From NCBI GenBank assembly GCA_032718475.1, contig JAUCBJ010005785.1, positions 12,912-76,911 of the forward strand: a stretch of DNA of 64,000 nucleotides, read 5' to 3'. This document shows positions 10,513 through 56,359 of the stretch, piece after piece. Within the stretch, counting starts at the first letter, position 1. Every line of letters begins with the position of its first letter. The notes beneath the pieces are model-generated. The model made no database searches. It saw only the letters and a list, made by a program, of their open reading frames with translations, and was not told the DNA's origin. Origin of the DNA: Nemertoderma westbladi (taxonomy: Eukaryota > Animalia > Xenacoelomorpha). The position numbers were made by a program, and so were the translations under genes.

Positions 10513-10753
10513 ATACGTTATTTTTTTTATAACTTTCTATTATTATGTGGTTACTATGTATTTATTTATATTGCTACCCATTGAAAGTTCAGTATTTCAG
10601 CCAGCGGTAATGATGGAAGTTAAAATGGTAATTTAAGTAAATTCGAAGATTGTGTAATGATAATAGTAATTTATACTTTGATTTTACCACTGGTATGATC
10701 TATAGTGTAGGCCATCAGGATATAAAGAATTCTAAAACTATCCCCACTATGTG

Positions 10754-14660: not shown

Positions 14661-15383
14661 TAAGTTAATTAAAAGTGAAAATTATTAATTATTATGTGAG
14701 TTCAAGACAAGACTAGGAGGTAGTTATGTTAAATTTATAAAATTTTTGTTCTTTCAATACTGTTCTTACTTAGGTACAATGTAATGATAATCTATTTAAT
14801 CTCCTTTTAAGTTTGTTGTTGATTATGCCTAATAAAGAAATTGCTATAACCCCATGTGCTCATCAATTTATATAATGGTTATAAAAGATATTGAATTTCT
14901 GCTTTGTATTTCCTACGAAACATAATAATGGTCTATATGGAACTAACATATCTAACAGAGTTATGTGTTATTCCATAGCACAGGTGGCACCTCCTTTGTG
15001 CTGTATTGTATGGAGGTGGAAGTTCGACGTATTTCCTGGATCAATTGAGCGAGATGACCTTCATGACTCTGGGATTACACACAAAGTCTGACGACGTATT
15101 TCACCCCCCCCCCCCCCCCCCCCCCTCCAGCCCACATGAAGTAGACCAGACTTTCACTATTGTGAACTATATGTTATATTTCACTTTGCAGTTTACCCCC
15201 ATGTAGAGAATACCAGGTTTCACTAAAAACTCAGGTTACAGCAAGGCTAAATATAACCAAAACAATAAATGAATTAGTATCTGTACAGGTTATAAGATAT
15301 AAATAAATGCTATAAAATATCCAGTTAGGAGAAATTAATAAAATACAAAATAAAATCCCAATAAAATTTCGACCACAAAGTGA

Positions 15384-18393: not shown

Positions 18394-18798
18394 GTGGAGT
18401 CAGATATGAGGCCCATCACCCATACCTACTCTGACGCACATGACCCAGCATTGGCTGTGCAGCTCATCTGCTGGGCCATACCCTGTACCCCTGCTGCCAG
18501 GTGCAGGTCGCAGTGAAGTGCATTCAGAGTGGACATGAGAACACTCTACTCCTGACCAGCCGCCATTGGTAGATCACCATTTGCCTGGCCAGGCAATATA
18601 CCCCTACAACCAAGTATATGGGTACCCTCTAGCCTTCTTCACAAAGACACACCATGTGGAATTGTACATTCAGCTTATTATAACTTTTTGTTGGTCACAG
18701 CTTTCCAATGTCGACAATGATGTCCAGGTGGGATCGTGCGTACTAGTGACCTCTGGGTTGGAAGTCTGACGCTCTAACCATTCAGCTAGCGACCCAGG
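18394..18798 (-). mobile_element. tRNA-derived head plus 5' leader of the RTE element (SINE-like)
   Basis: Minus strand GGGTCGC-TAGCTGAATGG (A box)-TTAGAGCGTCAGACTTCCAACCCAGAGGTC...CGATCCC (degenerate B box). The leader continues through the duplicated 54-mer into the endonuclease-bearing segment. Confidence 0.65.
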
Positions 18799-26640: not shown

Positions 26641-26899
26641 TCTTATATTTGGTTAGGATATTAAATACGGTATTTATAGATACTCTAACAATAAATATAT
26701 CAAATAAATTAATTAATATATTTGAAATATACAGCTATAAATTACGGTAAATTTTATATTGAATTTTTACATATCGTAGTTTTTTTTATTTTAATAATAA
26801 ACACAAAAAATATAGAAAGAAGAAACTCCAATTGGCCTAACTGTGTAACTAATCGAACCTACAAACATTGTCGTTTCGGTGTATAAGGAAGTTAACATT

Positions 26900-31024: not shown

Positions 31025-34000
31025 GATGTTTGAGAATGATGAGGGACTACAGCCTGCTGGTTATGCCTTCCTGCAAGAGTTCCTGAGCAACCAAAGTCAT
31101 CAACCACAACACTACGGCGATAATCTAGAAGGATGTGGGTTGGAAAACGAGACTGCAGTTAGAAAGGTGAGTCGTAACTCGTAAAAATTCTATAAATTCC
31201 GTTATTCTTCGTTTATTATCAATAATATACAGTAATGAACTGGACTATTTCTAGAAGCACATCAGTTAACTCTACAAAGCACCTTCAACCAACATAACCA
31301 ACCAGCATTGCACCATAATTAATTAACAAACTATTTAAATACGTAACGAATTAATACAGAACGTGTACAAATCAATTTAGACATCTAAAATAAATTGCAT
31401 TACACTAACTCATATCGAGAATCATATCGCATGGGAATATATCCTGTTAGAAGACAACCATTTCTATTTTACACTGACTTTTACACCACATAATATAGAA
31501 ATAAAGTAAGACATACGAAATAATTATATAAAATAAATATTATGGCCAATGAAATAAATAATCGTGCAATATAACATTTATCCGTCACAAACTATGGATT
31601 CTTCTTCGATTATAAAATGTAGGTAGAATATAGGCAGCAGTCTTGTGGAACCAAATCCGTAAATACGGTAGAACAATATAGGCCAGAACGATAAGGAACA
31701 TGATATTAATGCGAAACAATAACAGCTGTCTGTACTTGGACCATTCCCTTAGGTCGTCTACATAGAGGAATCTATTGCGGTAGTCAGCTGATAGTTCGAA
31801 CGGGGATGGTTTGGGGTACAGAGTCTCTAGTAGATCCTTAACAATAGCCTTGACAACATGGGCATCAGCATGGTTGTGGTCGATGTTATCGTTTAGGCAT
31901 ATAAACTTCTTCGGTCGTCTACGGATATCGTCCATCTGGTCAATGACCTTGGAGACGTTGCTACGGATCATTTTAAAGGCAACTTGTTCATCGTCTGTTG
32001 TTTCAAACTTATATTTATTGCGGTTAGTGTAAGAAGTGGATTCGTTTATCTTATTAAGGAGAGGTTCGCATGATTGGAAGACTGCTCTGGTCACCTGAGG
32101 AAGGATTGGGTTGTAGTAGGTCTCCTCGGGTCTATGTGGGTATTCCTCTGGGTTGGTTTTGGTGCAGTTCGATATGATGTACTCCATGTTGGTCAGACTC
32201 CCCATGGTTAGAGGGAATGGGTAAAGTCTAACGGCGAGGACTCTTAACTCCCTGTCGGAAAGTACACCGGAGTCATCAGTGTCGAGGTCTTCGAAAATTT
32301 GAGAGAAATTTAGTTTCACTTTCGCTTCCATTAGGTAGTAATAGTAGGAGAAAGCGAATTGCATATCTTCAGAGTGTCGCAGCTTATGGGAGGATGTCTT
32401 GTGGAATTCCTCGGGGAATGTTTCGTGAAGTTCCTCGACTATATCTCTGTTCGCGAAGTGCGGCATATGTGCGGGAACTGATCGGGCCGCGTGTCCGAAC
32501 GCTCGGTTGTACAACGAGTTCACGTAGAGCAAGGAATCACTGAAGCTATCCAGCAGTAACCGACCCCGCCCTCCACGAGTTCTGTACGACTCCTTAAGAG
32601 CATCGCGTTTATATTTTTCCTCCACCAACGAATCATAAGTTCCCAGTTTCTCCCAAGGCAAACTCCCATAGTTCTCTACTAATTTTGTCTTCGTTATTTT
32701 TTCAACGTAATTTTCACTTAATGATAAAATATCTCTGCTCAATTTACTTTCAGTTTTATAAGAATCGTTAATTAGTGATGTATTTAATGATTTACTTACA
32801 TGATGTGATATGTTTGTATTTAAATTTAATGCACTTAATGATAATGGTATGATAGTCTCACTGTTATTGTTTACATTGAAATTGGAAGTGATAATTGATT
32901 GATATGGTGATAATAATGTGTTAAGGTAACGCGTGTATCCCAAACGAGTTAATTCCTCGTTCGCGTATTTAGTTTGCAGCTGTTTGACGTGGCGGAGTAC
33001 CCCGTCGGGTAGACCCCGAGTGTCTAGGTAGTCTGGGAGACCCGAGGGAGCCCCACCCGCGTACAGCGAGCGGTTCACCTTGGGGCCCAGACTCCCGTCC
33101 GGGATGTCCGGGATACTGATGACGTCATCCGCGCCCATCTCCGTCTCCTTGGCGACCAGGAACTCCCCCCGCGAGGTATCGCAGACCACGGACCACCTCG
33201 TCGCCACGGTTACGTTCCCCGCGTCCGCCGTTACCAGGAAGTCAACCCGAGTGGAGCCGACGTTGGCGTAGAGAACGACTGTCATCGAACGGGAGGGAAT
33301 GTTGACTCCGACGACTCTCACTATATCCCCGTTGCTATCGTAACTCGCTGTTACTACGGTAGCGTTCGCGTCTATGACATCATTGAGATCGATGTAGAAG
33401 ACGCCCCAACCGAGAGGCGCCACTTCCGGTTTCGTGACGTCATTGATGGTGAGTTTGTTTATTAAGTGGAGCTGTGGACCGCAGTCGCCGGCGTCGTAAC
33501 CGCAGACCGGGCGGTTGCATGCGGGGTCGCAGTAGCGGTCCGCTACCCAGCCGTCGAAGCACCCGGGCGCGCACATTGAGTCCTCCGAGTGCGCGCCCGC
33601 GTAACCGCCGCGCCCAGGGCGCGCGCCCAGACAGTCGCCGCCGTCGTAGTCGCAACGCGAGCGGTTACAGACGGCATCGCAGTAGCCGTCGGCGAGCCAA
33701 GCCGCTGCGCAGCCCTCGGCGCAACTCGGGACCGGCCACGTCAGATACACGCGCTGCCCGCTGGAGGGCGCTAGGAAGTCGGACGGGCGGATCGGGGCCC
33801 CGAAGAAGACGTCGTCGTTGAGGTAGATGAAGTGGTTGGAGAGGCCGGGGATGCGGTGGAGGTTGGCCTCGATGGCGGGCGAGCTGAAGGTCGGGAGGTG
33901 GGAGCGGTTCGCGAAGATTTCCGCGTGAGTGACCAGGACGACCCGCGGGTGCTCCAGGTTCAACCAGTGCGGGATCTGGCCGTTGGTTACCACGTAGACG

Positions 34001-37000: not shown

Positions 37001-40000
37001 AAGATACGATTACCAAATATTTATAAAAAATTCCCATGATGGACAACCAGATAAATAACAACGATTAGAGCCAAATAACAAATTTAGTTTCCTTCTATAG
37101 GTATCGCCCCGTCGTCAAGCGGAATATCTCTTCCCAGTGAATCCTATGTGAATATGTAATATAGGTATTCCTGCTAAGTTAGGCAGTAGGCCAGAGCGGG
37201 CTCCTTAAATACATGCAACTACTGTATTATAGTGTAGATCAACTATAAAACATAGGCAAACCACAGTGAGTAACAACTGCAATAGGACACAACACACTGC
37301 TTTGTGTAACTAAAATTCATTCTCCTGATCCACCCCTTAACATAGCAGAGTGAGTAACCTTATTGTAGATATACCCTTAGGAAGCACTGGGAGAGCAATC
37401 AGCTTATGGGGTAATACATTAGAAACCAACAGCTTATGTGTGAGTAAACATTGCCTTTCCTTATAGCCTACTAGTAAAACTTGGCAACCAACACGTTTTA
37501 CTATGACTGTGTATAACATATTAAGCCATATTTCATCATGAACACCTATATTTATTATCCTGATATTTTGTTATTTTTCCGGAACAGGAAAGTTCCTGTT
37601 CCTCGGGTTAAAATAACCGGAAAATAACAAAATATCAGGGTAATAAATGTGTTGTTACCAACTAATCTCGGAAAAAATAACCAACTACATCATGTTTATA
37701 TCAAGAAGCCACTATTAATTTACAATATACCAAACCCATCCAGATACCCTAGATTTCTAAAAGGGTTTTGTTTGGGGGTAGAAATATAAAAATGGGGCTT
37801 GGAAATTTTGGGGGGAGACACTAATTACAAATTATTAAATAACACGAGCGGCCAAGGCATAAAATAAATAAATAACATGAGCGGGCCTATGCCTAACAAT
37901 TTCCCCCTGGCGGGTAAACTGGAATAAAGTAAAAAAAACAAATAAATATAATAGATTAAATAATAAAGTAATATAGAATAAATGATGGAAAATACTAGAA
38001 TTTATTTCCATTCCACAGTATGTATAGGTAACACGATGATAGTGATGGGAGTCTACTCGGGACAGCTGAGAGCGTTACATCGTGTGGAATTGGGTGAGAC
38101 ACAATGTAGACAGAACCATTCGTGTGAGAATAGGTGAATGTAGGCTTACCATACTGTATACGATGTACGAATTTAACTTAAGAATAAACTTACGTATTTC
38201 AGTATATGAGAAAAAAGTAGAACATTTTGTTTCTCAATATTCTCTCAACCCTTTATTAACCTCGCTGAAGCTCGGTAAATAAAATGCCTCGAGAATAACG
38301 AAAAAAAGTTCTACTTTTTTTCCCATGTACCTAATAAATAATTATTTATTCTTAAATTGTTACTTTTGCGCCCGAATTTAGATCAAAATCTGGAGAAAAT
38401 ATTTAACTTTTTTTCCTGGCGAAAAAAGTAAAATATAATATTTTTGGTGGAATTTCTTAAATTGTATTACCGTTGTACCGGTACCGTACGTAGTTCTACA
38501 GCATTGTGCATGTGCAGTATGTAAACCTACGTTATTTACAACTGGTAGGTACAAGTCTGTCTGTCTGGTACGTTCGTCTTTACAGTAGAATCGTAGAAAC
38601 TGTAAGAGAATGTGTAGAGAATGGTATTCCTGCCATGATCAGGATGCTGCTGTCCATAATTGTCAAATACCGAAAGTAAAAGATCTCTGAGTAGGCTGAA
38701 TTGAGTGTGCAATCTGAACTTGTAGTGTAGGCCTACCAGTACTGCATTTCCCGTTTAGTTTGCCAGTACCGGTACATTAAATTATTGCCCAATATGCTCT
38801 GTTCTGTAGGCGTACCGGTCAGGTAGGTTTTGTAGTTGCAAGGCAGTGATGTGATTGAGACATTAAAGGAAGCTGTGGTACCACTACCGGTACTGTACGA
38901 TGCATGCAGTCAGTCTACCTACAATCTGAACTGAAAACATACCATAGGCCTACGATAGTCTTATTCTTATAACTTTCACTTTCACTCATGTTAGTAAAGG
39001 TAACCGGTACCCTAAGCTAACTAATGTATTCACAACACGGCAAACAGGCATAAATATAATTTCAACATGCAGATTGCAGATACCGGAGTGTTGAAAAATA
39101 AATGTGTTATTTTTTCCTAGGACTAAAATAACACTATTTTTAGATAGGTTATCATTGCGATTGTGTTATTTTTTCCGGGATTGGTTGGTAACAACAGCTG
39201 TTATTTTACCATTGCTTTTAATTTCGCGACAAAATAATGTCAAAAAACTAAATATATCGAATACCACACATATAATCGATCTGAAATTTTGTAACGCGAT
39301 TATGAACCACCAAAGCAATGTACTTGCAAAATTTCATCAAAATCGCCAGGCAGGAAGTGCCTGAACTTGGATAATTATCAGTCAGTGTTAAATATCCTGA
39401 GATTTTTACAGAAAGTATCCCTGAGATTCTTACAGTAAGTATCCCGCTGTCAAGCGGGCTCCTAATTACGTAAGTAAACATGGCTTAAACAATGGCATTT
39501 ACAGTATTTAACAAATTTGTATAATACTTTATATGCTGAGCGAGATAATTAGTTTACCCACAAATTCCGATCTAAGTCATTGTCGGTTTATCTGAAGCGA
39601 TTGGTTGAGTTGACGTTCAATATGGTTAAGATCGAAATTTCTGGGCAAAAACCTCAAACGTTGACATACCTAAGGTAGCTCAGCCTAAGGCTGTATCATC
39701 TACTGTACAGTATTTGCTCAAGTATTACTTTTAATATTTTATATTCTGCATCCACTTAAACTAATATAAATATATTGTTATTTCAGGCATTCTATTTATT
39801 AGTACGGCGCGTCGTTAAAGTTGCTAACAAAATCCTCGACTCTGATGGAGAGCGTTCTTTACTATCTGAGCACACAATTGGTAGGTTTATTATGAGGCAG
39901 ACACACAATTGGTAGGTTTATTATGAGGCAGACACACAATTGGTATGTTTATTATGAGGCAGACACACAATTAGTAGGTTTATTATGAGGCAGACACACA

Positions 40001-43000
40001 ATTGGTAGGTTTATTATGAGGCAGACACACAATTGGTATGTTTATTATGAGGCAGACACACAATTGGTAGGTTTATTATGAGGCAGACACACAATTAGTA
40101 GGTTTATTATGAGGCAGACACACAATTGGTATGTTTATTATGAGGCAGACACACAATAGGTAGGTTTATTATGAGGCAGACACACAATTGATAGGTTTAT
40201 TATGAGGCAGACACACAATTGGAAGGTTTATTATGAGGCAGACACACAATTGGTATGTTTATTATGAGGCAGACACACAATAGGTAGGTTTATTATGAGG
40301 CAGACACACAATTGATAGGTTTATTATGAGGCAGACACACAATTGGAAGGTTTATTATGAGGCAGACACACAATTGGTAGGTTTATTATGAGGCAGACAC
40401 ACAATTAGTAGGTTTATTATGAGGCAGACACACAATTGGTATGTTTATTATGAGGCAGACACACAATTGATAGGTTTATTATGAGGCAGACACACAATTG
40501 GAAGGTTTATTATGAGGCAGACACACAATTGGTAGGTTTATTATGAGGCAGACACACAATTGGTAGGTTTATTATGAGGCAGACACACAATTGGTATGTT
40601 TATTATGAGGCAGACACACAATTAGTAGGTTTATTATGAGGCAGACACACAATTGGTATGTTTATTATGAGGCAGACACACAATTGGTAGGTTTATTATG
40701 AGGCAGACACACAATTGGTAGGTTTATTATGAGGCAGACACACAATTGGTAGGTTTATTATGAGGCAGACACACAATTGGTAGGTTTATTATGAGGCAGA
40801 CACACAATTAGTAGGTTTATTATGAGGCAGACACACAATTGGTATGTTTATTATGAGGCAGACACACAATTGATAGGTTTATTATGAGGCAGACACACAA
40901 TTGGAAGGTTTATTATGAGGCAGACACACAATTGGTAGGTTTATTATGAGGCAGACACACAATTGGAAGGTTTATTATGAGGCAGACACACAATTGGTAG
41001 GTTTATTATGAGGCAGACACACAATTGGTAGGTTTATTATGAGGCAGACACACAATTGGTAGGTTTATTATGAGGCAGACACACAATTGGTATGTTTATT
41101 ATGAGGCAGACACACAATTGGTAGGTTTATTATGAGGCAGACACACAATTGGTAGGTTTATTATGAGGCAGACACACAATTGGTAGGTTTATTATGAGGC
41201 AGACACACAATTGGTAGGTTTATTATGAGGCAGACACACAATTGGTAGGTTTATTATGAGGCAGACACACAATTGGTATGTTTATTATGAGGCAGACACA
41301 CAATTAGTAGGTTTATTATGAGGCAGACACACAATTGGTAGGTTTATTATGAGGCAGACACACAATAGGTAGGTTTATTATGAGGCAGACACACAATTGG
41401 TATGTTTATTATGAGGCAGACACACAATTAGTAGGTTTATTATGAGGCAGACACACAATTGTTAGGTTTATTATGAGGCAGACACACAATTGGTATGTTT
41501 ATTATGAGGCAGACACACAATTGATAGGTTTATTATGAGGCAGACACACAATTGGAAGGTTTATTATGAGGCAGACACACAATTGGTAGGTTTATTATGA
41601 GGCAGACACACAATTGGTAGGTTTATTATGAGGCAGACACACAATTGGTATGTTTATTATGAGGCAGACACACAATTAGTAGGTTTATTATGAGGCAGAC
41701 ACACAATAGGTAGGTTTATTATGAGGCAGACACACAATTGGTAGGTTTATTATGAGGCAGACACACAATTGATAGGTTTATTATGAGGCAGACACACAAT
41801 TGGAAGGTTTATTATGAGGCAGACACACAATTGGTAGGTTTATTATGAGGCAGACACACAATTGGTAGGTTTATTATGAGGCAGACACACAATTGGTATG
41901 TTTATTATGAGGCAGACACACAATTAGTAGGTTTATTATGAGGCAGACACACAATTGGTAGGTTTATTATGAGGCAGACACACAATAGGTAGGTTTATTA
42001 TGAGGCAGACACACAATTGGTATGTTTATTATGAGGAAGACACACAATTGGTAGGTTTATTATGAGGCAGACACACAATTGGTATGTTTAATATGGGGCA
42101 GACACACAATTGCTAGGTTTATTATGAGGCAGACACACAATTGTTAGGTTTATTATGAGGCAGACACACAATTGGTAGGTTTATTATGAGGCAGACACAC
42201 AATTGGTAGGTTTATTATGAGGCAGACACACGATTGGTAGGTTTATTATGAGGCAGACACACAATTGGTAGGTTTATTGTGAGGCAGACACACAATTGTT
42301 AGGTTTATTATGAGGCAGACACACAATTGCTAGGTTTATTATGAGGCAGACACACAATTGGTAGGTTTATTGTGAGGCAGACACACAATTGGTATGTTTA
42401 TTATGAGGCAGACACACAATTGGTAGGTTTATTATGAGGCAGACATACAATTGGTAGGTTTATTGTGAGGCAGACACACAATTGGTATGTTTGTTATGAG
42501 GCAGACACACAATTGGTAGGTTTATTATGAGGCAGACACACAATTGGTAGGTTTATTATGAGGCAGGCTCACAATTGGTAGGTTTATTATGAGTCAGACA
42601 CACAATTGGTAGGTTTATTATGAGGCAGACACACAATTGGTAGGTTTATTATGAGGCAGACACACAATTGTTAGGTTTATTATGAGGCAGACACACTATA
42701 GGTAGTTTTATTATGAGGCAGACACACAATTGGTAGGTTTATTATGAGGCAGACACACAATTGTTAGTTTTATTATGAGGCAGACACACTATTAATTGGT
42801 AGGGTTATTATGAGGCAGACACACAATTGTTAGGTTTATTATGAAGCAGACACACAATTGGAAGGTTTATTATGAGGCAGACACACAATTGTTAGTTTTA
42901 TTATTAGGCAGACACACTATTAATTGCTAGGGTTATTATGAGGCAGACACACAATTGGTAGGTTTATTATGAGGCAGACACACAATTGGTATGTTTATTA

Positions 43001-46000
43001 TGAGGCAGACACACAATTGGTAGGTTTATTATGAGGCAGACACACAATTGGTACGTTTATTATGAGGCAGACACACAATTGGTAGGTTTATTATGAGGCA
43101 GACACACAATTGGTAGGTTTATTATGAGGCAGACACACAATTGGTAGGTTTATTATGAGGCAGACACACAATTGGTATGTTTATTATGAGGCAGACACAC
43201 AATTGGTAGGTTTATTATGAGGCAGACACACAATTGGTAGGTTTATTATGAGGCAGACACACTATAGGTAGGTTTATTATGAGGCAGACACACTATTGGT
43301 AGGTTTATTATGAGGCAGACACACAATTGTTAGTTTTATTATGAGGCAGACACACAATTGGTAGGTTTATTATGAGGCAGACACACAATTGTTAGTTTTA
43401 TTATGAGGCAGACACACAATTGGTAGGTTTATTATGAGGCAGACAACACATTGGTAGGTTTATTATGAGGCAGACACACAATTGGTATGTTTATTATGCG
43501 GCAGACACACAATTGGTAGGTTTATTATGAGGCAGACACACAATTGGTAGGTTTATTATGAGGCAGACACACAATTGGTAGGTTTATTATGAGGCAGACA
43601 CACAATTGGTAGGTTTATTATGAGGCAGACACACTATAGGTAGGTTTATTATGAGGCAGACACACAATTGGTAGGTTTAATATGAGGCAGACACACAATT
43701 GGTAGGTTTATTATGAGGCAGACAACACATTGGTAGGTTTATTATGAGGCAGACACACAATTGGTATGTTTATTATGCGGCAGACACACAATTGGTAGGT
43801 TTATTATGAAGCAGACACACAATTGGTAGGATTATTATGAGGCAGACACACTATAGGTAGGTTTATTATGAGGCATACACACTATTGGTAGGTTTATTAT
43901 GAGGTAGACACACAATTGTTAGTTTTATTATGAGGCAGACACACAATTGGTAGGTTTATTAAGAGGCAGACACACAATTGTTAGTTTTATTATGAGGCAG
44001 ACACACAATTGGTAGGTTTATTATGAGGCAGACACACAATTGGTAGGTTTATTATGAGGCAGACACATAATTGGTAGGTTTATTATGAGGCAAGCTCACA
44101 ATAGGTAGGTTTATTATGAGGCAGACACACAATTGGTAGGTTTATTGTGAGGCAGACACACAATTGGTAGGTTTATTATGAGGCAGACACACAATTGGTA
44201 GGTTTATTATGAGGCAGACACACAATTGGTAGGTTTATTGTGAGGCAGACACACAATTGGTAGGTTTATTATGAGGCAGACACACAATTGGTATGTTTAT
44301 TATGAGGCAGACACACAATTGGTAGGTTTATTATGAGGCAGACACACAATTGGTATGTTTATTATGAGGCAGGCACACAATTGGTAGGTTTATTATGAGG
44401 CAGACACACAATTGGTAGGTTTATTTTGAGGCAGACACACAATTGGTAGGTTTATTGTGAGGCAGACACACAATTGGTAGGTATATTATGAGGCAGACAC
44501 ACAATTGGCAGTTTATTATGAGGCAGACACACAATTGGTAGGTTTATTATGAGGCAGACACACAATTGGTAGGTTTATTATGAGGCAGACACACAATTGG
44601 TAGGTTTATTATGAGGCAGACACACAATTGGTAGGTTTATTATGAGGCAGACACACAATTGGTAGGTTTATTATGAGGCAGACACACCATAGGTAGGTTT
44701 ATTATAGGCAGACACACAATTGGTAGGTTTATTATGAGGCAGACACACAATTGGTAGGTTTATTGTGAGGCAGACACACAATTGGTAGGTTTATTATGAG
44801 GCAGACACATAATTGGTAGGTTTATTTATGAGGCACACACACCATAGGTAGGTTTATTATGAGGCAGACACACAATTGGTAGGTTTATTATGAGGCAGAC
44901 ACACAATTGGTAGGTTTATTATGAGGCAGACACACAATTGGTAGGTTTATTTATGAGGCACACACACCATAGGTAGGTTTATTATGAGGCAGACACACAA
45001 TTGGTAGGTTTATTATGAGGCAGACACACAATTGGTAGGTTTATTGTGAGGCAGACACACAATTGGTAGGTTTATTATGAGGCAGACACATAATTGGTAG
45101 GTTTATTTATGAGGCACACACACCATAGGTATGTTTATTATGAGGCAGACACACAATTAGTAGGTTTATTATGAGGCAGACGCACAATTGGTAGGTTTAT
45201 TATGATGCAGACACACAATTGGTAGGTTTATTATGAGGCAGACACACAATTGGTAGGTTTATTATGAGTCAGACACACAATTGGTAGGTTTATTATGAGG
45301 CAGACACACAATTGGTAGGTTTATTATGAGGCAGACACACAATTGGTAGGTTTATTATGAGGCAGACACACAATTGGTAGGTTTATTATGAGGCAGGCTA
45401 ACAATTGGTAGGTTTATTATGAGGCAGACACACAATTGGTAGGTTTATTATGAGGCAGACACACAATTGGTAGGTTTATTATGAGGCAGGCTCACATTTG
45501 GTAGGTTTATTGTGAGGCAGACACACAATTGGTAGGTTTATTATGAGGCAGACACACAATTGGTAGGTTTATTATGAGGCAGGCTCACATTTGGTAGGTT
45601 TATTGTGAGGCAGACACACAATTGGTAGGTTTATTATGAGGCAGACACACAATTGGTAGGTTTATTATGAGGCAGACACACAATTGGTAGGTTTATTATG
45701 AGGCAGGCTCACATTTGGTAGGTTTATTGTGAGGCAGACACACAATTGGTAGGTTTATTATGAGGCAGACACACTATAGGTAGGTTTATTATAAGGCAGA
45801 CACACAATTGGTAGGTGTATTATGAGGCAGACACACTATTGGTAGGTTTATTATGAGGCAGACACACAATTGGTAGGTTTATTATGCTTCAGACACATAA
45901 TTGGTAGGTTTATTATGAGGCAGACACACAATAGGTAGGTTTATTATGAGGCAGACACACAATAGGTAGGTTTATCATGAGGCAGACACACAATTGCTAG

Positions 46001-49000
46001 GTTTATTAAGAGGCAGACAACACTATTGGTAGGCTTATTATGAGGCAGACACACAATTGGTAGGCTTTTGATAGACGGATACACACTTGGTGGGTTTATT
46101 ATGAGGGCATATTATGCTCATCTTTCTTTGTTTCGGGAAATATTTACATACGTTGTTTATATATAATTTTCCATTATAAGATTATCAACATCAATTAAAT
46201 ATAAATAAACAAACACATTAGATTAATCTCGTAATAAATTTTACTTCAAAGTTTAAACATTAACTTTTAACACGTGTAATTTATTATAATCTAAATATAA
46301 TCCGCAGATACGCCATATTTAGGGTGAGACTTTATAGTGTCATTTTGCAACAGACCTACAGTATCTGAGCAGCACACTGTAAATAAAGTGCTACTTTACA
46401 CACCAAGTATGAATTAATAATAACCATTAATTAGTCCATCCCATCCTTGAAACGAACGCGTTTTGGATAAGTTCCTGTCGCCAGTTTAATTTATCCTGAA
46501 GGGCTGCGTGAGAGCTGGGGGCGGTTGAGGTGCCTCGTTTGCGTAAACAACTCCGTAACTCAATACAAACATGACGATTAAAAGCAACACAGCTTTGATA
46601 TAGTTTACCATATTCGATTCCATAATACGTGATGGACGAATGTTATATATAATTTAAATAAAATTTATTGATAATAATATGTATGCAGATTATATTGCTT
46701 TTATAATAAATATAAAAGACACGATAGCTTGGTGGTTTTATTTATACAATAAAATTGAAAGTGAGACCGAGTTTCCACTGAATAAACGATATATAAATAC
46801 TTTACTTTGGCGGCTTTATCTCATTATGTAATGAATCAGTAAATTACAAAATACTTTGCATCCAATTAAATTACCATTATCTTATTTATCAAATTCAAAA
46901 AATAGTTAAAAAGCTTTTAAAAACTTTTAATGGACAATTATTTTGAATAATCATGTTCATTGATAGTATATCGATTTCTTTTATCGGTTTTCAAATCTGT
47001 AGAAATTACTTCTGAAATAATTATGTTTGGATCGGAATGTATTTCGTAGGAATGTATTAACCCACACTACTTCCTTTGTGAGCAACATAGCTCCATAGTC
47101 ATAATAAAATGCACAGCATGTTCTGTAAGGTGGTAGGTTGCTCCCAAAATATACAACAAAATGATTCTATATAGAATTAGGCCTCACATAGAGAAACTGC
47201 TGCCTAAGATCCAAAACAGATTTCGACCAAATAGATCAACAATAACTCAGATACTTGCACTACAGAGACTAATTGAAGGGATTAAGTCAAAGGATCTCCC
47301 CGCAGTCATGACTTTTGTGGACTTCAAGAAGGCATTCGACTCCATCCATAGAGGTAAAATGCTGGAAATCCTAAGAGCTTATGGAATACCCGAAGTAATT
47401 TTCGTTGGCATTGGATTGTTATATTGTGACACAGAAGATCAGGTATACTCTTACCAGATGGTGAAACTGAGTTCTTCTCAATCCTGGCTGGCGTACTGCA
47501 AGGTGACACATTGGCGCCATTACTATTCGTAATTGTACTGGATTACGCAATGAGGATGGCCACAAAGAGTGAAGATTTCGGATTCACACTACAAGAACGC
47601 AGATGAAGTAGATATCCGGTAACTACAGTCACAGACACCGACTTTGCGCATGACATCGCCCTGCTCTCTAATACGCTAGCAGATGCACAGCTTCTACTGA
47701 ATAATGTGGAGAGGGCTGCTAAGGAGGTTGTATTGTATATAAATGCTACCAAGACCGAATTCATGACTTTTTATGTTGATGGAAACTTGACAAGAATTGA
47801 AAATAATCAGCTAAGGGAGGTTGACGACTTCCAGTACCTTGTGTCATGGATAGAGAGTAGCGAAAAAGACATAGAAGTGTCATGGATAGAGAGTAGAAAA
47901 AAAAAGACATAGAAGTTAGGAAAGCAAAGGCATGGGTAGCTCTATCAACAAGCGCGAAATCGCGCAAAGGTCCGCGTCTACTAACGCATTACTGTTAGTT
48001 ATATTTTAGAAGTTAGTAATAATGTCATCATGTAATCATAGTCTTTTGTTCGTTATGAAATTATACGATATCTGTTAAGTTAGTACATATCTGCAAAAGT
48101 TTCATCAGTATTTTTAAAAGAAACGTTCTTTCTATCAATGGATTGTATAACGCAATTGTTTTTAAGTTCTGTAACATTATGCTATTGTACAAGAATAACG
48201 ATGTCATTGTGAAATAATACATTTTATATAAAAGCGATGGTTCGTTTGAAGACATATGGGACATCTGCGGGAATGTACTAATCTGGAACATTTCTGCAAA
48301 AGGAAACTGTAGCTTAATATGTATTTATAATATGTATTATGTTTATTGTTACTTTAATTATTTTTAGAAATACAAGTGTTTTTTTAAATAACCTTGTTTT
48401 GTTGTAAATAAGGTACACAGTGGTTTAATACCTTTGAATGGCTGCTAAGCTATATTTCATATATTTACCCTCGAATGCATTAAATGCTGGGAAATATTTG
48501 CCTCCAGTTGTAGACATTAGAATGACGTCATGTGATATTTAGTACGACAGTGGTTACATACTGGACATACATCGTAAACGTATGGGCTGGAGTAGGGACA
48601 TACTGATAAATAATGTCGCACTGCGATATATAATATGTCGTTATTTGGCAGTGTGAAATGTTTTCGAATAAATTAAATATATTCTTGGTTTTTTTTATCT
48701 TACCTTTATTTTTAGCTCTGATACTTCATTTGTTGTGCATTGTATGGAAACCTAAGGATATGGGGCTGATTTGTGATATTGAGTTGCCGGAGTTGCTACT
48801 AAAGAGCTCGCTGCTCGGAATAGGTCCTTCCGCCGACTCCAAGAACTACTCGGCCCTCGACCATAGAACCAATCGACCCTACTTGAACAATGAAACGGTG
48901 AGTTTTTATATATTTCTGAACCGAGCGAATAATTAATTAGTACGTAATTACTTTATTATGTATAATAATTGGTACGCAATAAACTGTTCTTAAGAATCAC

Positions 49001-52000
49001 AGACTTCTGACTCACCCCTCAGAAACAATGTGTTGAACAGTTATAAAAGTGTAAAAGTATTATCCTTTTCCATTTATATGCTTTAGGAATTAGAGTCACA
49101 AAGCCGACATCTGGCTTGGTTGGAGCAGGCCAAGGGGTCCTTCTCCGATTGGTTTGGGGCCATAGAAGAATTATCTCCTGATGAAGCTAAGGTTGGTGGC
49201 AAGATGGAGGTGTGTTGGGGGCGGGGTGGGGGGGGGTGGAATTATCAATGGTTTGGTATCTAGGGTGGGGTGTATCTGTGGTTTGGTATAGGTATAAGTG
49301 GGGGGGGGGGGGGGGGGGGGGGGGGGTCTATGGCGTTTGGTTGGTAAATTGTATTGATAATTAATTGTAATTTACCAATCATTATTTATTATTCTAGGAT
49401 AGGCACTTTTTCGTATCTCGATTCGGCGATCAACTTCCTTGTAAGAGCAGTTGTAACAATTGTCTTTCGGACCTCAGGGATCGAACACGATACCGTTGTT
49501 TGGACTGTAAGGATACGGACTTCTGTGGGAACTGTTTCACAAGTAAGTCATTGGGTTATCTCGTAAATATATATTGTAAAGTTATCTCCAGACTCATTCC
49601 TCTGTAGTCTTTCACTTCTGATTTCTCTTATTAATAACTTGGTACAATATCATTCAATCGATTATATTTCTGTGTTGGTGAGAAAAATAGACTCCCAGAT
49701 GTAAAGTAAAGAAAGTAAAGTAAAGTAAAGTAAAAGTAATGTAATGTAAAGTAAAGTAAAGTAAAGTAAAGTATAGTAATGTAATGTAATGTAATGTAAT
49801 AATGTAATGTAATAATGTAATGTAATGTAATGTAATAATGTAATGTAATGTAATAAGGTAATGTAATGTTATGTAATGTAATGCAATGCAATGCAATGTA
49901 TTGTAATGTAATGTAATGAAATGTAATGCAATGTAATGTAATGTAATGTATGTAATGTAATGTAATAATGTAATGTAATGTATGTAATGTAATGTAATAA
50001 TGTAATGTAATGTAAAGTAATGCAATGCAATGTAATGTAATGTAATGTAATGTAATGTAATGCAATGCAATGCAATGCAATGTAATGTAACGTAATGTAA
50101 AGTAAAGTAATGTAATGTAATGTAATGTAATGTAATGTAATGTAATGTAATGTAAAGTAAAGTAAAGTAAAGCAATGTAATGTAATGGATGTAATGTAAT
50201 GTAATGTAATGTAAAGAATTCTTCCTTGTATGCGGTAATTTCACATGAAAGCTCCATCTTTTGAGCCGGACCACAGTTGCTATGGTTGTAGTATTCCCTG
50301 CCACAATAGTTTCACCGTATGTTTCGGCCTCGCTTCGCAAGTATGTTTGATTGTCTATTTTTATTGAGTCGGTTTATTGTGTAAGTATGTTTGTTTGTCT
50401 ATTTTTATTGAGGCGGCCTATTGCTTAAGTATGTTTGATTATCCATTTTTATTGAGTCGGCCTATTGTGTAAGTATGTTTGTTTGTCTATTTTTATTGAG
50501 GCGGCCTATTGCTTAAGTATGTTTGATTGTCTGTTGTTATTGAGTCGGCCTATTGTGTAATTTTTTTGATTGTCTGTTTTTATTGTGTCGGCCTATTTTG
50601 TGAGTTTGTTTGATTGTCTGTTTTTATTGAGTCGGTTTATTGCTTAAGTATGTTTGATTATCTGTTTTTATTGAGTCGGTTTATTGTTTAAGTATGTTTG
50701 ATTATCCATTTTTATTGAGTCGGCCTATTGTGTAAGTATGTTTGTTTGTCTATTTTTATTGAGGCGGCCTATTGCTTAAGTATGTTTGATTGTCTGTTGT
50801 TATTGAGTCGGCCTATTGTGTAATTTTTTTGATTGTCTGTTTTTATTGTGTCGGCCTATTTTGTGAGTTTGTTTGATTGTCTGTTTTTATTGAGTCGGTT
50901 TATTGCTTAAGTATGTTTGATTATCTGTTTTTATTGAGTCGGTTTATTGTTTAAGTATGTTTGATTATCCATTTTTATTGAGTCGGCCTATTGTGTAAGT
51001 ATGTTTGTTTGTCTATTTTTATTGAGGCGGCCTATTGCTTAAGTATGTTTGATTGTCTGTTGTTATTGAGTCGGCCTATTGTGTAATTTTTTTGATTGTC
51101 TGTTTTTATTGTGTCGGCCTATTTTGTGAGTTTGTTTGATTGTCTGTTTTTATTGAGTCGGTTTATTGCTTAAGTATGTTTGATTATCTGTTTTTATTGA
51201 GTCGGCCTATTGTGTAAGTTTGTTTGATTGTCTGTTTTTATTGAGTCGGTTTATTGCTTAAGTATGTTTGATTATCTGTTTTTATTGAGTCGGCCTATTG
51301 TGTAAGTTTGTTTGTTTGTCTGTTTTTATTGAGTCGGTTTATTGTTTTTGTTTGATTGTCTATCTTTATTGAATCGGCCTATTGTTTAAGTTTGTTTGTT
51401 GGTTGTTGTTAATTCAAATGTAATTTACCCCCTATTGCGTATCCATTGGATGCATATATTATACTACTACTAGCGTACTAGGTCAAGCGAACTCGGACAT
51501 CATATATTATTAGATTGCATTTACTTGACTTTATGAATCTATCGTTATTTTTGTGCCATTTATTGAATCAATATTTAAGCTCATGCAAGATCAGAAGATC
51601 TTACTGTTATTTATAATAATAAAATTGTAATTAAACCCATTGCAGTCTTAATTTGGTCTTTACGTCTCCATAGAAAGCTGCTCCCAGTTAGTGATCTATA
51701 CTAGAACATCAAAGGTGTTAACATTAATATGATAATTTATTAACGTGTTATTCAGGTGAAGCTATGGTTGAGGGTCATGAGGCTTCTCATCGATTGTTCC
51801 GTTTTCGGTTTTACTGCGATAACTGTCAAGCCTTCATTGTGGGCACCCGTTACCATTGTCTAAGATGTGATGACTTCGATCTCTGTCTCCATTGCCATAC
51901 CAAGGAAACATTCCCCACCCGGTTAGTGAGGGACAACAAAATCATCGACTTTATATTCATGTCAAAAGGGATTATCCTTCAATAAAATGTAATATAATGT

Positions 52001-55000
52001 AAAGCATTACCGATAGTAAGTAAATTACATAATTTAAATAAAATTAATATTATTATTGCTAATTATTCATAAATATTAGTAGTAATAATAATTTTCGAAT
52101 ATTTGTAAATGTTTACTACTACTACTAGGTCGAGCGAACTCAGACTTAACTGGGGTCTTTGTAAATGTTTATCACTTTATAAATTATCGAGTTCTAGCAT
52201 ATTAATATAACAAGACTGTTTTGTTTTTAGTTGTAAAATATGATGTTAATTTTCGAATAAATATTCGTTCTCCACGGCGTTCTCAAACACTCACTTGAAT
52301 AAATATTCGTTCTCCACGGCGTTCTCAAACACTCACTCGAATAAATTACAGCAGTTCTCGTCCCGATTGAATGATCATCGCTACGCATCGCTTTGTAACC
52401 TAATAAAGTAACCCGAATATTTTGTTTTAGACATTCCTCAGAGCATCCGATTACTGAGATCCACATGGAGGTTGTCAGAGCAAAGAGCCGAAGCAGCACC
52501 CACCAAGTCTGGGATTATGTTTACACATTCGCTTGTATGAATTTTGCAGCGCTATCGATGCTAGTCAGCAATATGTTAGCTAATATAAACCAATCAGGTA
52601 ATTCAAAAGTGAAAAGGTTATTTATGAAAAATACTAAATGAAAAAAAAAAGAAAAAAAAAAAAAACGAAAAATAGATAAACAAATCAAATAGCTTTGAAC
52701 CTGAACCCGATAATATTTTGCCCAGTGGGTGACTGCTGACAGCTGGCAGCGCGGAGTTAATTACTTCAAGGGATAAAAAGCTATTGTTTTCTGTAATAAA
52801 TTCCATAGTTATTTTTCTTTGTTTTACTCAGTTAAAATAAAGTATTGACTAAAGGGAGTTCGTAACGTTTTATTGTTATGTTTCAGTTGAAAATGACGTT
52901 TATATTGAGCCACTGTATAGATTACTTCATCAATGCATCTCACTGGTTTTCACACATTTGGACAAAATGCCGAAGGTCACATCTTCTGGTAAAGCTATCG
53001 CCGATGAAGCTGACATTGCGACAAAAGGCGTAACGGATTCCATAGAGAAGGTGGGAGAAACTCAAACGGAACGTTACGCCTCGGATCTAGCGAGTGGAAT
53101 AATAAGATCATTGCTAAACATCGACCCTGGATTCCGCAGAGATGACGACAAGGATGTCGCCGCCCCTGATATTCCCCGAGCTGAGGTACATGATGATACC
53201 GGGAAAGGAGATGATGATGATTTGGGCGTCGTAACCGAAAAGGGACAGGGTGATGCTGAAGTTAATGACATTATGGCAAATGGCAATCCTATTTCCATTG
53301 TAAACAACGTAGACTCCCATACTCTATACTCAAACATCCACTATAATGCCGATGCCACTACCGTTGACGGTGCCGTTGCGGCTACTCTTGCTGCCGCGGT
53401 TGCCGGTGCTGCTGGTGATATGACTAGCATTTCCTCTGCCGCTATGGATTTGGTTGACAGAAGTATGAGAAGGAGAAACCGTCGGAACCGGATAATTGGG
53501 GACCGAAGTCGAATAATTCTTGCCCGGAGAATTCTTGACTCCCCTCCCGAAACATCCTCCGAGTCATCATCGTCGGACTCATCGAGCGACGACGATACTA
53601 CAAGCAGCTCGGTCGATGAAGGTCCTATGAGACGTCACATGGAGCAATTAATGCTTGCTTCTTTCAAACCTACAAAACCAAAAGCTTTCGCGTCATGTAT
53701 GGAGTCTCTTACAGAAATGATATTGGCTCTATTGGGGGTGCTTCTACCAAGGATACAAAAGAAAAGCAGCTGTTATACCAGCGACACACCCCGAGCAGTG
53801 AACATGGAGAAACTCTTTGATCTCATGTTCGACATTGTCATGGGTAAAGTTTTAGATAAATTGGACAACTCTTCCAGTGTAGCCATCGGAGTCTTAGGTA
53901 CTTTATTACAATTGAAGAAAGAGGAATTGCGTTGCAAGGATACATCTGACCGAACTGGGGTTGCAACTGGGGTCAATGAATATTGTGAATACTTATCGAA
54001 TTTTATGCATTTGGGCGTGGATTCTATGAAAAATGGTAAGATGGACGTTTCTCATTGTATCGCCGCACGTTTACATGATCTATTGAAAGAGGATTCCAGC
54101 GATATTTTGAATATGATTACGGCGAGGTTCGACTTACCCGGCGATGAGACCAATCTTATAATGCAGATATTCTGTTTGCTAGCGCTTTCTGGATTCCCTA
54201 AGCTACCGTACGTCGGCCAACTAGCTCGGCAGTTGCCCATTGTCCGGGACAACACCGCAGTCTCCATCGGGGCCGAAACAGCAGAAGATGACGCGAACAA
54301 CGTCGTTATGATAACGCATTGCACGCTGGAGGGAGATGGACCGGTGAGTGTGATCGACATTAGGAACCGAATCCGTGGTACCTGCCTCCCCGGTTACTTA
54401 GCACTCCTTGGTAATGGTGGCGTCGATATCACAGACGACTTCCTCAAACTGTTGTTAAACTACGCCGTGGTTCCCATGTCGAAAGACCAAAAACACCAGA
54501 TATGGCTACAGCCGTTTGCTCTCCAAGCCGTTGTTGATTTGGCCGCTGGGAGTCGCTTAGTCGAAATCGTTGATAATAGCGAAACCGATATCCTTAATCA
54601 ATTGATTAAGCTCGCCTTTAAGCCAACTGGCATGGCAAAAGCATGGCAGACTAAACATTTAGGAGCCTTAGCTATGAAATACTTTACTCAGATCCAACAA
54701 TCACCTGAAACTGACTCTGATAAAAAGGGGAACGCGATTGACAAGGAAGCAGCTACTGATAGTACGATAATAGCAATAGCTGGAGCCGACAAGGACCCAC
54801 TAGAGGGCATCGAAGAAGAGATAGTTAGATGCTTAATAAACATAAACGAAGCTTTGGGAGTTTCTTTCCCCATATTGCGGGGGGTTTATGAATATGTTAG
54901 CTCGAATTATGTTGCCTCTGATGAAGGCACAAAGGCTGAGGTGTTAGTAAGAGAGGTGGAGAAATACTACGACGGTGAAACGTTCAATCCACCAGCAGCC

Positions 55001-56359
55001 GCAAAAGATTTCGCTAAATGTTGGGGTAAAGAAATCGTCGATGATAAAACCGTAGAATACCAAGTGAAAGATTTCGATGTCGGTCTTAAGGAATATGATC
55101 CTGATACGTACAAATTGCCATCGAACAAAAAGGCTATCGAAGAGCCAGGCATTAACATGAACACAGAGCGACTCATAAAAGTCTTTGATGCAGAGAAGCG
55201 AGGAAAGAAGACCGAATATGAGGCATCAAAGAATTTACTGGATGCGGCTCTAAAAGGCAAAGAAGGAGTTGGTGGATTTAAGTATTCATACTTTAAAGTT
55301 AACGAATGTTTATTAATTCTAGAAGCAAGAAAGTTACTAGGGAAATTGTTGCTGAACGCATCGGAAATCCACAGCTCGGTCCCTCAGTCACTGAGTATTA
55401 GTTCCTTAGTTGCGAAGTCTAACGTTTCGGTATTATGCATTCTCCATTTGATGCACACCATCACCGATGCCGACTCTTTCAACGCGATTGTCTCCTCGGT
55501 AGTCGGTTGCACATCGACTCCGTCTGAGGTTCTCGAGATGGCTCGAGTTGCGTGCCACTTTATATCGGAACTAAAACGCGAAACGAAAGTCATAGAAGTT
55601 CGAAAGTCGCTCAAAGGAACCGCGAACATTCCAAACTCTCAGTATCTGGACATCACCGTCGACCTCAGTTTGGGTAAACTCGAAGAAAGCGACGAGGACT
55701 ATTTCCAGATGATACTCCTGCCTACCGGCGCCCCCATTAAAGAAGGGACCATAGTTAATGACCCGGATTACGATTGTTACATTGTTAAAATCCCCGGGGA
55801 TTCCGTTGATTACGAGTTCGAGTTCGACTCCCCTTTGAAGGGATTCACCGTGACCGTTACGGTCCAAGGCGGCGAGTTGAATCGGTTCGAGACGGGATAT
55901 TCGGTGCTCGTCGCGATCCTCGACAAACCGGATTTCGATTCGAACGAAGGTGTTCTCCAGTTATGTTCCATCGTTTGGCAGTGGTTAGTGAAGGCTGCGG
56001 ATTTCAACACTCACGACTACAGACTACGTTTGCTGAATTTGATGCTAAAGTTAATGGTTTCTGTAAGTAATTTACCCGTAGAATGCAGCAAGACGTGTCC
56101 GCTTGACTTGTCGCTTCTGAAACCGTTGTGGAAAATGTTCAACGAGATGTTGAGTCGAACCAATAAGGAGGAGTTGTTGCGTTCGCAGTTGGACCGCACG
56201 CTCATGGAGGTCTTCTGGTGCGCGGAGTCCCTAGCAACGCGTTGGGGAACTCTAGAGTTCTATAAGGCATCTTTGGTTACTAAGGCCGATGTGCGAGATT
56301 TAGTTAAAGAAGCTGCTCTCAACGTCAAATGTTTGCTATCATCGATAGATGTTGAATAG
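31025..56359 (+). CDS. ZZEF1: ZZEF1 orthologue (C-terminal half), spliced: exons 31025-31166, 39787-39880, 48716-48897, 49087-49191, 49398-49542, 51756-51921, 52431-52597, 52887-56359
   Basis: All introns are GT-AG and phase-compatible (0,1,0,0,1,2,1). The joined peptide HYGDNLEGCGLENETAVRK|AFYLLVRR..RSLL..LILHLLCIVWKPKD..IELPELL..FSDWF..DRHFFVSRF precedes two tandem ZZ fingers (CNNC..RYRCLDC..DFCGNC..H..H; CDNC..RYHCLRCDDFDLCLHC..H..H). The C-terminus VWQWLV..DLSLLKPLW..RTLMEVF follows the order I recall for human ZZEF1. Confidence 0.88.
31585..34959 (-). CDS. GNPTAB: GlcNAc-1-phosphotransferase alpha/beta precursor, intronless, nested antisense in a ZZEF1 intron
   Basis: MLHKLIQKHTYSCLSRRY N-terminus and TM helix; Stealth CR1 (DVVYTWVNGSD), CR2 (RFQDNEELRYSLRS..FIYLNDD), two LNR repeats, S1P-type site RLLL/DSFSDSL, CR3 (VPAHMPH), EF hand DTDDSGVLSDRE, CR4 (KKFICLNDN) and a C-terminal TM. 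The ORF is open back to an ATG at 35073. Confidence 0.96.
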   Translation of the reverse strand: MLHKLIQKHTYSCLSRRYSIYLIFAGIIVFAFSAMYFLSVSHVSLQHMGNNSGDYIIQVYRDNIADRSVWDDIGGPLPVDVVYTWVNGSDPRMLVELRKVRRVMEREQNGVEQTDSLCPYSHCIPTNMLILQPAVPGHIKLSELQLKYKQFMPALTMYNKTVPGEFQFQITVMEFALESSLLKAMSSPVDINGAAVHASQGYVTTNYLAPHSVLLSHAFIVENVTTRADQVRNRLRADGLPVSADVIVHANAALVTSRTEDLSAFVTAHEWDRRINTASLVWDLDALPTDDRSESNRFQDNEELRYSLRSVARYAPWVRRVYVVTNGQIPHWLNLEHPRVVLVTHAEIFANRSHLPTFSSPAIEANLHRIPGLSNHFIYLNDDVFFGAPIRPSDFLAPSSGQRVYLTWPVPSCAEGCAAAWLADGYCDAVCNRSRCDYDGGDCLGARPGRGGYAGAHSEDSMCAPGCFDGWVADRYCDPACNRPVCGYDAGDCGPQLHLINKLTINDVTKPEVAPLGWGVFYIDLNDVIDANATVVTASYDSNGDIVRVVGVNIPSRSMTVVLYANVGSTRVDFLVTADAGNVTVATRWSVVCDTSRGEFLVAKETEMGADDVISIPDIPDGSLGPKVNRSLYAGGAPSGLPDYLDTRGLPDGVLRHVKQLQTKYANEELTRLGYTRYLNTLLSPYQSIITSNFNVNNNSETIIPLSLSALNLNTNISHHVSKSLNTSLINDSYKTESKLSRDILSLSENYVEKITKTKLVENYGSLPWEKLGTYDSLVEEKYKRDALKESYRTRGGRGRLLLDSFSDSLLYVNSLYNRAFGHAARSVPAHMPHFANRDIVEELHETFPEEFHKTSSHKLRHSEDMQFAFSYYYYLMEAKVKLNFSQIFEDLDTDDSGVLSDRELRVLAVRLYPFPLTMGSLTNMEYIISNCTKTNPEEYPHRPEETYYNPILPQVTRAVFQSCEPLLNKINESTSYTNRNKYKFETTDDEQVAFKMIRSNVSKVIDQMDDIRRRPKKFICLNDNIDHNHADAHVVKAIVKDLLETLYPKPSPFELSADYRNRFLYVDDLREWSKYRQLLLFRINIMFLIVLAYIVLPYLRIWFHKTAAYILPTFYNRRRIHSL
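35931..36070. repeat. 45-bp tandem repeat x3
   Basis: AAAATAAATTAAAATTAATTAAACTAGTTAAGGAGCCTAGTATAG. Confidence 0.9.
36072..36585 (+). mobile_element. Non-LTR retrotransposon 3' end with CCHC zinc knuckle
   Basis: LQIENGR..PRNDKLCQLCNVQEVEDEYHFVLKCPLYHDLR followed by a 3' UTR and AATAAACAAAC. Confidence 0.75.
37551..37650. repeat. Nested inverted repeats (foldback); related sequence in inverted form at ~39160-39210
   Basis: TTTATTATCCTGATATTTTGTTATTTTTCCGG ... CCGGAAAATAACAAAATATCAGGGTAATAAA enclosing the hairpin GGAACAGGAA-AG-TTCCTGTTCC. Confidence 0.7.
39871..46105 (+). repeat. 31-bp minisatellite, about 200 copies, built from a ZZEF1 exon end plus 5' splice site
   Basis: Unit CACACAATTG|GTAGGTTTATTATGAGGCAGA; the first copy overlaps the last 10 nt of exon 39787-39880. 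Confidence 0.97.
47135..47948 (+). mobile_element. RTE LINE RT fragment (second subfamily)
   Basis: QNRFRPNRSTITQILALQRLIE..FVDFKKAFDSIHR..GVLQGDTLAPLLF..DFAHD..INATKTE. Confidence 0.9.
49700..50216. repeat. (GTAAT/GTAAA/GCAAT)n pentanucleotide microsatellite
   Basis: Visible directly; explains the LHYIT ORFs. Confidence 0.97.
50339..51400. repeat. 44-bp minisatellite (~24 copies) with a 263-bp six-unit higher-order repeat
   Basis: Unit AAGTATGTTTGATTGTCTATTTTTATTGAGTCGGCCTATTGTGT; the ATCCATTTT variant occurs at 50441, 50704 and 50967. Confidence 0.95.

What the first reader, a model, noticed from the sequence alone, without database searches (positions are those of the whole stretch)
39787..46105. 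A coding exon's 5' splice site amplified about 200-fold into a 6.2-kb donor-site satellite
Seen: exon 39787-39880 (AFYLLVRR...SEHTI) ends ...CACACAATTG|GTAGGT. That junction (10 exonic + 21 intronic nt) is the 31-bp unit of the array that fills the start of the 8.8-kb intron. Only the first donor is productive: donor 2 adds 31 nt (frameshift) and donors 3 onward include an in-frame TAG. Inference: the spliceosome must choose 1 of about 200 near-identical donors. The array could be a decoy/NMD rheostat tying repeat copy number to ZZEF1 output, a U1 snRNP loading platform, or a natural test of exon definition.
Basis: partly seen in the sequence, partly recalled or inferred. Interest (0 to 1): 0.88.

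Follow-up and report, generated by a model that had tools for sequence, protein, structure and literature searches.

The report
Repeated splice donor in ZZEF1 intron
In an invertebrate's ZZEF1 gene, the last ten bases of one exon and the splice signal behind them are repeated 201 times into the next intron, yet the one spliced transcript seen uses the first signal, so this is a large and likely harmless example of a repeat type already known from human and lancelet genes.

Summary
Window 39871-46106 is 201 copies of a 31-bp unit: 10 exonic plus 21 intronic bases of a ZZEF1 exon. 171 units keep GT, and 114 copy the donor 9-mer exactly. A spliced contig in a public run joins 31166>39787 and 39880>48716, so donor 1 is used. 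Donors 2-8 give premature stops. Repeat depth in one DNA run matches the assembly, arguing against an artefact.

The kind is known: human F7, CBS and IFI6 repeats, ABCA7 (up to about 427 donor units) and lancelet 'mirages'. F7 minigenes showed first-donor selection. The scan noted the same arrangement at many genes of this genome and in other invertebrates (unchecked).

A decoy or U1-platform role is unsupported, because the repeated donors are not preserved: 96 of 179 substitutions fall in them. One oddity remains. In units 1-69 all 42 substitutions hit the donor, but non-junction arrays nearby also cluster their variants. Verdict: likely a tolerated minisatellite.

The parts
31025..31166 (+). 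Upstream coding exon of ZZEF1 (first one found in the window)
   Evidence: AG/GT borders and open frame; joined to 39787 in the X4 contig; aligns to ZZEF1 homologues
39787..39880 (+). 94-nt coding exon whose last 10 nt seed the repeat
   Evidence: X4 contig covers 39785-39880 with no mismatch and leaves at 39880; colinear with five ZZEF1-family proteins
39871..39901 (+). Unit 1: 10 exonic + 21 intronic nt, holding the authentic donor at 39880|39881
   Evidence: Sequence; used in RNA
39871..46106 (+). 31-bp minisatellite, 201 units; 171 with GT, 114 with the exact donor 9-mer
   Evidence: k-mer depth in run X3 matches the assembly
39871..42009 (+). Exon-proximal block, units 1-69, built from the consensus and six variants that all lie at donor positions -2 to +4
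39881..48715 (+). 8,835-nt intron, about 70% array; the rest includes a decayed reverse-transcriptase-like fragment at 47137-47912
   Evidence: the fragment's identity is recalled from its motifs, not searched
48716..48897 (+). Next coding exon (182 nt), partner of donor 1
   Evidence: The contig's loose end equals window 48716-48745
49087..56359 (+). Rest of ZZEF1: exons 49087-49191, 49398-49542 (ZZ1), 51756-51921 (ZZ2), 52431-52597, 52887-56359
   Evidence: Predicted from borders and frame; Pfam ZZ; homology; no RNA laid on these exons

Best explanation
This is a junction-spanning minisatellite (F7-type repeat, lancelet 'mirage') in a ZZEF1 intron: a 31-bp piece across the exon's donor is repeated 201 times, the transcript seen is spliced at the first copy, and the array is likely a tolerated by-product of repeat expansion with no regulatory role. 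Shown: the array, its unit, the gene, use of donor 1 in one spliced contig, and premature stops for donors 2-8. Inferred steps: (1) A slippage duplication seeded the unit, probably at a short similarity between the exon just before the unit and the intron near +13 to +19. (2) Unequal exchange and slippage expanded it, leaving duplicated blocks of units. (3) It survives because the spliceosome, having defined the exon from its acceptor, takes the first donor it meets, as shown for F7. (4) Any leak to donor 2 or 3 would be removed by nonsense-mediated decay.
For: The spliced contig goes 39880>48716 and not through any later unit. Donor 1 gives the only open frame, and the junction aligns to homologues with a 2-residue gap and no insertion. 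Spare donors decay: 30 of 201 have lost GT, and distinct variant alleles in the donor window are 14 of 49, the share expected by length. Duplicated blocks such as units 9-12 = 13-16 and 19-25 = 53-59 mark ordinary array turnover. The window holds other large arrays with similar divergence and no link to a mapped junction (69 bp x 104, 30 bp x 35). Precedent: F7 uses only the most upstream donor, even against stronger downstream copies (PMC1557585). Lancelet mirages do not appear to disturb splicing (PMC3087553, PMC3902484).
Against: RNA evidence is one contig of depth 7 from one run, which the tool labels 'DNA?'; I read it as RNA from its splice joints. Rare isoforms would be dropped, and decay would hide them further. 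In units 1-69 all 42 substitutions (6 alleles) lie in the donor window (P 0.0007 uniform, 0.013 base-matched, with the block chosen after looking), which a purely neutral model does not predict. In ABCA7, length did change splicing, through skipping of the next exon. First-donor selection was shown in mammalian cells, not in this animal.
Confidence: 0.8

Rival explanations
1. The array arose neutrally but has a real, length-dependent cost, as in ABCA7. Longer alleles would raise mis-splicing (donor 2 use, or skipping of a flanking exon) and lower ZZEF1 output, and weak selection would favour donor-weakening variants near the exon.
For: Exact donor copies are 27 of 70 in the proximal third and 50 of 66 in the distal third; GT is lost in 14 of 70 against 2 of 66. 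All 42 substitutions in units 1-69 lie in the donor. Skipping the 94-nt exon gives an immediate stop, and the next exon is 182 nt, not a multiple of three. ABCA7 exon skipping rose 3.2-fold with length (PMC5954066). Repeat depth per window copy is 4-11 in sample S1 against 26-30 in S2, which hints at length variation.
Against: Unit 2, the nearest competitor, is an exact copy, as are units 5 and 7. Of the 43 donor-window changes in units 1-70, 5 add a U1 match and 15 leave the match count unchanged. Non-junction arrays also put 64% (69 bp) and 85% (30 bp) of their substitutions in one window of the same relative size, and 100% in one third of the 30-bp array; the 44-bp array gives 46%. Six founder alleles are few events. 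The two runs of S1 disagree more than two-fold.
Confidence: 0.13
2. The array is a selected regulatory device, a decoy/NMD rheostat or U1 snRNP loading platform, kept to tune ZZEF1.
For: All tested alternative donors give premature stops. 171 units keep GT and could bind U1 (inference).
Against: Donor positions are among the most changed in the unit, not the most conserved: +1 has 21 changes, +4 has 26 and +2 has 9. No alternative junction was seen. A 31-nt unit shifts the frame two times in three by chance, and the TAG lies inside the donor motif itself. Earlier unchecked notes put such arrays in many unrelated genes of this genome, which argues against a gene-specific design.
Confidence: 0.04
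3. The array is an assembly artefact, or its length is badly inflated.
For: No contig spans it, and no long read could be laid across it. Sample S1 shows only 0.16-0.36 of the depth expected for 201 units.
Against: In run X3, six exact repeat contigs have depth 25.6-30.4 per window copy, against 29.1 for single-copy DNA, and the rarer variant words scale too. Flank contigs of X1, X2 and X3 run into unit 1 and break at 39900, where the repeated words begin. Variants occur in ordered, duplicated blocks.
Confidence: 0.03

Closest known systems
Human F7 intron 7 37-bp VNTR (Borensztajn et al. 2006, PMC1557585; abstract, 12 passages and the whole Discussion read), with IFI6/6-16, CBS intron 13, LMNB2 and PDGF intron 4 as cited there (originals not read)
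   Same: The first unit spans the exon-intron border, the donor is repeated into the intron, and the first donor is used.
   Different: Those arrays have 5-25 units, against 201 here. IFI6 and CBS also use two downstream copies; that was not seen here and could not be excluded.
Human ABCA7 intron 18 25-bp VNTR (De Roeck et al. 2018, PMC5954066; 12 of 14 passages seen)
   Same: Each unit carries the donor's GT. The size range is comparable (12 to about 427 units, up to 10.7 kb). Use of the second donor retains one unit, shifts the frame and leads to decay.
   Different: The ABCA7 unit starts at the GT and holds no exon bases. A length effect on skipping of the next exon and on expression was measured there; none has been measured here.
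Amphioxus 'mirage' minisatellites: globins BflGb6/BflGb9 (PMC3087553, 7 passages seen), PGBD5 (PMC3902484, 1 passage seen); Adh3 and troponin C only as cited there
   Same: Invertebrate tandem duplications of an exon-intron border, with units of 10-160 bp, that leave splicing apparently normal.
   Different: The copy numbers in the passages seen are small (3-6 for BflGb6). Length instability is reported there and only hinted at here.

Membership tests
Junction-spanning minisatellite (F7 type / mirage) | Head-to-tail array of a short unit | tested here: met
   31 bp x 201, 93% matches
Junction-spanning minisatellite (F7 type / mirage) | First unit spans a real exon-intron border | tested here: met
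   10 exonic + 21 intronic nt; border confirmed by a spliced contig
Junction-spanning minisatellite (F7 type / mirage) | Donor signal reiterated in the intron | tested here: met
   171 of 201 keep GT; 114 of 201 identical from -3 to +6
Junction-spanning minisatellite (F7 type / mirage) | Normal splicing at the exon-proximal donor | tested here: met
   One contig, depth 7, one run; minor isoforms not measurable
Junction-spanning minisatellite (F7 type / mirage) | Copy number varies between alleles | tested here: inconclusive
   Depth per window copy 4.4-4.6 (X1), 11.4 (X2, same sample as X1), 25.6-30.4 (X3); contig depth is a poor measure
Junction-spanning minisatellite (F7 type / mirage) | Spare donors work when the first is inactivated | not testable with these tools
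   Needs a minigene, as for F7
Regulated unproductive splicing (NMD rheostat) | Alternative sites give premature stops | tested here: met
   Donors 2-8
Regulated unproductive splicing (NMD rheostat) | Unproductive isoform is actually made | tested here: inconclusive
   Not seen in the one contig; contigs drop rare forms
Regulated unproductive splicing (NMD rheostat) | Decoy sites preserved by selection | tested here: not met
   96 of 179 substitutions in the donor window; 30 units lost GT. Tested within the array only; no related species available
Recursive-splicing ladder | AG|GT points preceded by an acceptor-like tract | tested here: not met
   The two kinds of in-unit AG|GT point have 1-2 T in the 17 nt upstream, against 8-12 T at the gene's 8 real acceptors

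The most novel reading that the evidence does not exclude
The array records selection on splice-site competition. Near the exon, the variants that spread are the ones that alter the donor (42 of 42 substitutions in units 1-69; exact donors fall from 76% distally to 39% proximally), so the array would be defusing its own decoys where they can compete. If the same gradient held across this genome's many donor arrays, they would form a natural mutational scan of 5' splice-site choice, with array length and composition acting as an inherited dial on gene output.
Probability: 0.1. Interest if true: 0.6.

Novelty: new member of a known kind. Interest (0 to 1): 0.2.

Why it matters
Taken alone it matters little. 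It extends a known oddity to another gene and shows that first-donor choice holds against about 170 intact spare donors in an invertebrate, within the size range already reported for ABCA7. The more valuable question is at genome level. Earlier unchecked notes list many such arrays in this animal, some over 1,000 units. If they are more frequent than random seeding predicts, that points to a mutational or selective link between splice junctions and repeat birth. My five literature searches for such a survey found none in this open-access library.

Tried and rejected
No whole genome is held for this window, so I could not count junction arrays genome-wide or rule out copies of the unit at other loci. 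Within the window, 1 of the array's 15-mers matched outside it.

The run search listed no holder on record as RNA. The reads were laid on stretches holding at most 4.5 units, so no read or contig across the whole array was examined.

A word-indexed search with the last exon for longer proteins found nothing; the full HMMER search did. GNPTAB's best hits are only 31-41% identical and spread over molluscs, chordates and echinoderms, so I did not place the organism.

Recursive splicing and an 11-nt micro-exon from the unit were rejected for want of an acceptor tract. One in-unit AG has a T-rich tract (9 T) but a G at -3 and no GT behind it. Selection to preserve decoy donors was rejected. Selection to weaken them was not established, because control arrays cluster their variants too.

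Paper searches: searches returned 0 papers, and one search returned 2 unrelated ones. Earlier-finding look-ups for weakened proximal donors and for notes near this place returned nothing. No supplements were opened.

Full report
The array. Tandem Repeats Finder gives 39871-46106, period 31, 200.9 copies, 93% matches. Splitting it by hand gives 201 units, 76 of them identical to unit 1. Unit 1 consists of the last 10 bases of exon 39787-39880 and the first 21 bases of the intron. 171 of 201 units keep GT and 114 match the real donor from -3 to +6. Seventeen have one more match to the U1-complementary consensus than the real donor; that motif is recalled, and the score is a simple match count.

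The gene. Eight exons with AG/GT borders (31025-31166, 39787-39880, 48716-48897, 49087-49191, 49398-49542, 51756-51921, 52431-52597, 52887-56359) give one open frame of 1,490 residues when donor 1 is used. Two exons encode ZZ fingers. The last exon found 23 proteins among 1.84 billion representatives. Of six looked up, five are named ZZEF1 or ZZEF1-like and one is unnamed; of six scanned, four carry ANAPC10 plus ZZ, one ZZ only and one neither. The model aligns colinearly with these across the exon in question, with a 2-residue gap at the junction and no insertion. The 5' part of the gene was not located.

Splicing. The run search found five holders, none on record as RNA. Run X4 nevertheless holds a 541-nt contig that covers 39785-39880 without mismatch. 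It continues on one side into the end of exon 31025-31166 and on the other into 48716 onward (checked against the window). That is a spliced transcript using donor 1. It is one contig of depth 7, so rare isoforms cannot be excluded. By translation, donor 2 shifts the frame to a stop in the next exon, donors 3-8 contain an in-frame TAG, and skipping the exon gives an immediate stop. All these stops lie far upstream of later junctions, so decay is expected from the usual rule (established knowledge, not tested).

Is it real? Flank contigs from X1, X2 (one sample) and X3 differ from the window by a 4-base gap and a substitution, run into unit 1, and stop at 39900, where the repeated 31-mers begin. 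One search showed 20 of 27 records. I used the nine repeat contigs with no mismatch and left out seven with mismatches, whose letters were not given. For X3, depth divided by the number of times the same words occur in the window is 25.6-30.4 for all six contigs, including rarer variants, against 29.1 for single-copy DNA. So X3 carries about as many units as the assembly; it may be the source sample and is then not independent. For X1 the figure is 4.4-4.6 against 22.5-28.3, and for X2 11.4 against a flank of 31.7. This hints at shorter alleles, but the two runs of one sample disagree and the tool warns that depth is no copy number.

Neutral or selected? If the spare donors were kept as decoys or U1 sites they should be the conserved part of the unit. 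They are not: 96 of 179 substitutions fall in the 9 donor positions, and +1, +2 and +4 carry 21, 9 and 26 changes. Counted as distinct alleles, 14 of 49 fall there, as expected by length. There is a gradient, though. In units 1-69 all 42 substitutions come from six alleles at -2 to +4 (P 0.0007 uniform, 0.013 base-matched, block chosen after looking), and exact donors are 27 of 70 proximally against 50 of 66 distally. Against reading this as selection: unit 2 is intact, some variants strengthen the donor or leave its score unchanged, and non-junction arrays in the same window also cluster their variants (best window 64% for the 69-bp array, 85% for the 30-bp array, 46% for the 44-bp array). 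I leave it as an open lead. Duplicated blocks of units show ordinary turnover, and a short similarity between the exon just before the unit and the intron near +13 to +19 offers a plausible slippage seed (inference).

Mechanism of choice. Donors 2-7 would give exons of 125-280 nt, and the gene's other internal exons are 94-182 nt. The real contest is therefore likely among the first few donors, not 200. For human F7, 50 constructs showed that identical downstream donors are functional but unused, and that the most upstream intact site wins even against stronger copies (PMC1557585, abstract, passages and Discussion). I infer the same here; it has not been shown in this animal.

What is known. 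The F7 paper lists IFI6 (25 pseudo-sites), CBS (15-20), LMNB2 and PDGF as further cases (originals not read). ABCA7 has a 25-bp unit beginning with the donor's GT, with up to about 427 units. One-unit retention was about 2% and independent of length, while skipping of the next exon rose with length (PMC5954066, passages). Lancelet 'mirages' are the invertebrate counterpart (PMC3087553 and PMC3902484, passages); I took the term and these two papers from earlier notes and checked them. Those notes describe the same arrangement at many genes of this genome, up to about 2,100 units, and in annelid, urchin and mussel genomes. They are unchecked AI notes, used as context only. In this window 1 of 14 arrays crosses one of 15 mapped junctions, against 0.1-0.3 expected, which is too few to show enrichment.

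Verdict. It is a new, large but unexceptional member of a known kind, most likely tolerated through first-donor selection (0.8). A mild length-dependent cost is the main rival (0.13); a selected rheostat (0.04) and an artefact (0.03) are unlikely. Interest 0.2.

Noticed in passing
window 31585-35097 (-): A single open reading frame for GNPTAB (Stealth CR1-4, LNR) lies antisense inside the 8.6-kb ZZEF1 intron 31167-39786. Run X4 has contigs along it. A nested, apparently intronless gene.
   Followed up: partly
window 26849-28576 (+) and 10736-12961 (+): Uninterrupted reading frames for a Tob/BTG protein and a Prospero-domain protein. Since ZZEF1's earlier exons were not found, they may also lie inside a long ZZEF1 intron; the X4 contig has about 150 nt upstream of 31019 that I did not place.
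   Followed up: partly
window 39871-42009: All 42 substitutions in units 1-69 of the array fall at donor positions -2 to +4; unexplained, though control arrays also cluster their variants.
   Followed up: yes
window 3300-10520: 69-bp array of about 104 copies just upstream of the Prospero frame, open in one frame over long stretches and holding a GT-containing donor-like motif; no exon link was established.
   Followed up: partly
window 13616-14661: 30-bp array of 35 copies downstream of the Prospero frame; it ends directly before a GTAAGT motif, which may be chance.
   Followed up: no
window 49699-51398: A 5-bp microsatellite and a 44-bp array with a 263-bp higher-order period fill most of the intron between the two ZZ exons; neither touches a junction.
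   Followed up: partly
window 47137-47912, 17400-18425, 15913-16664: Decayed fragments that look like LINE reverse transcriptase or endonuclease (recognised from motifs, not searched).
   Followed up: no
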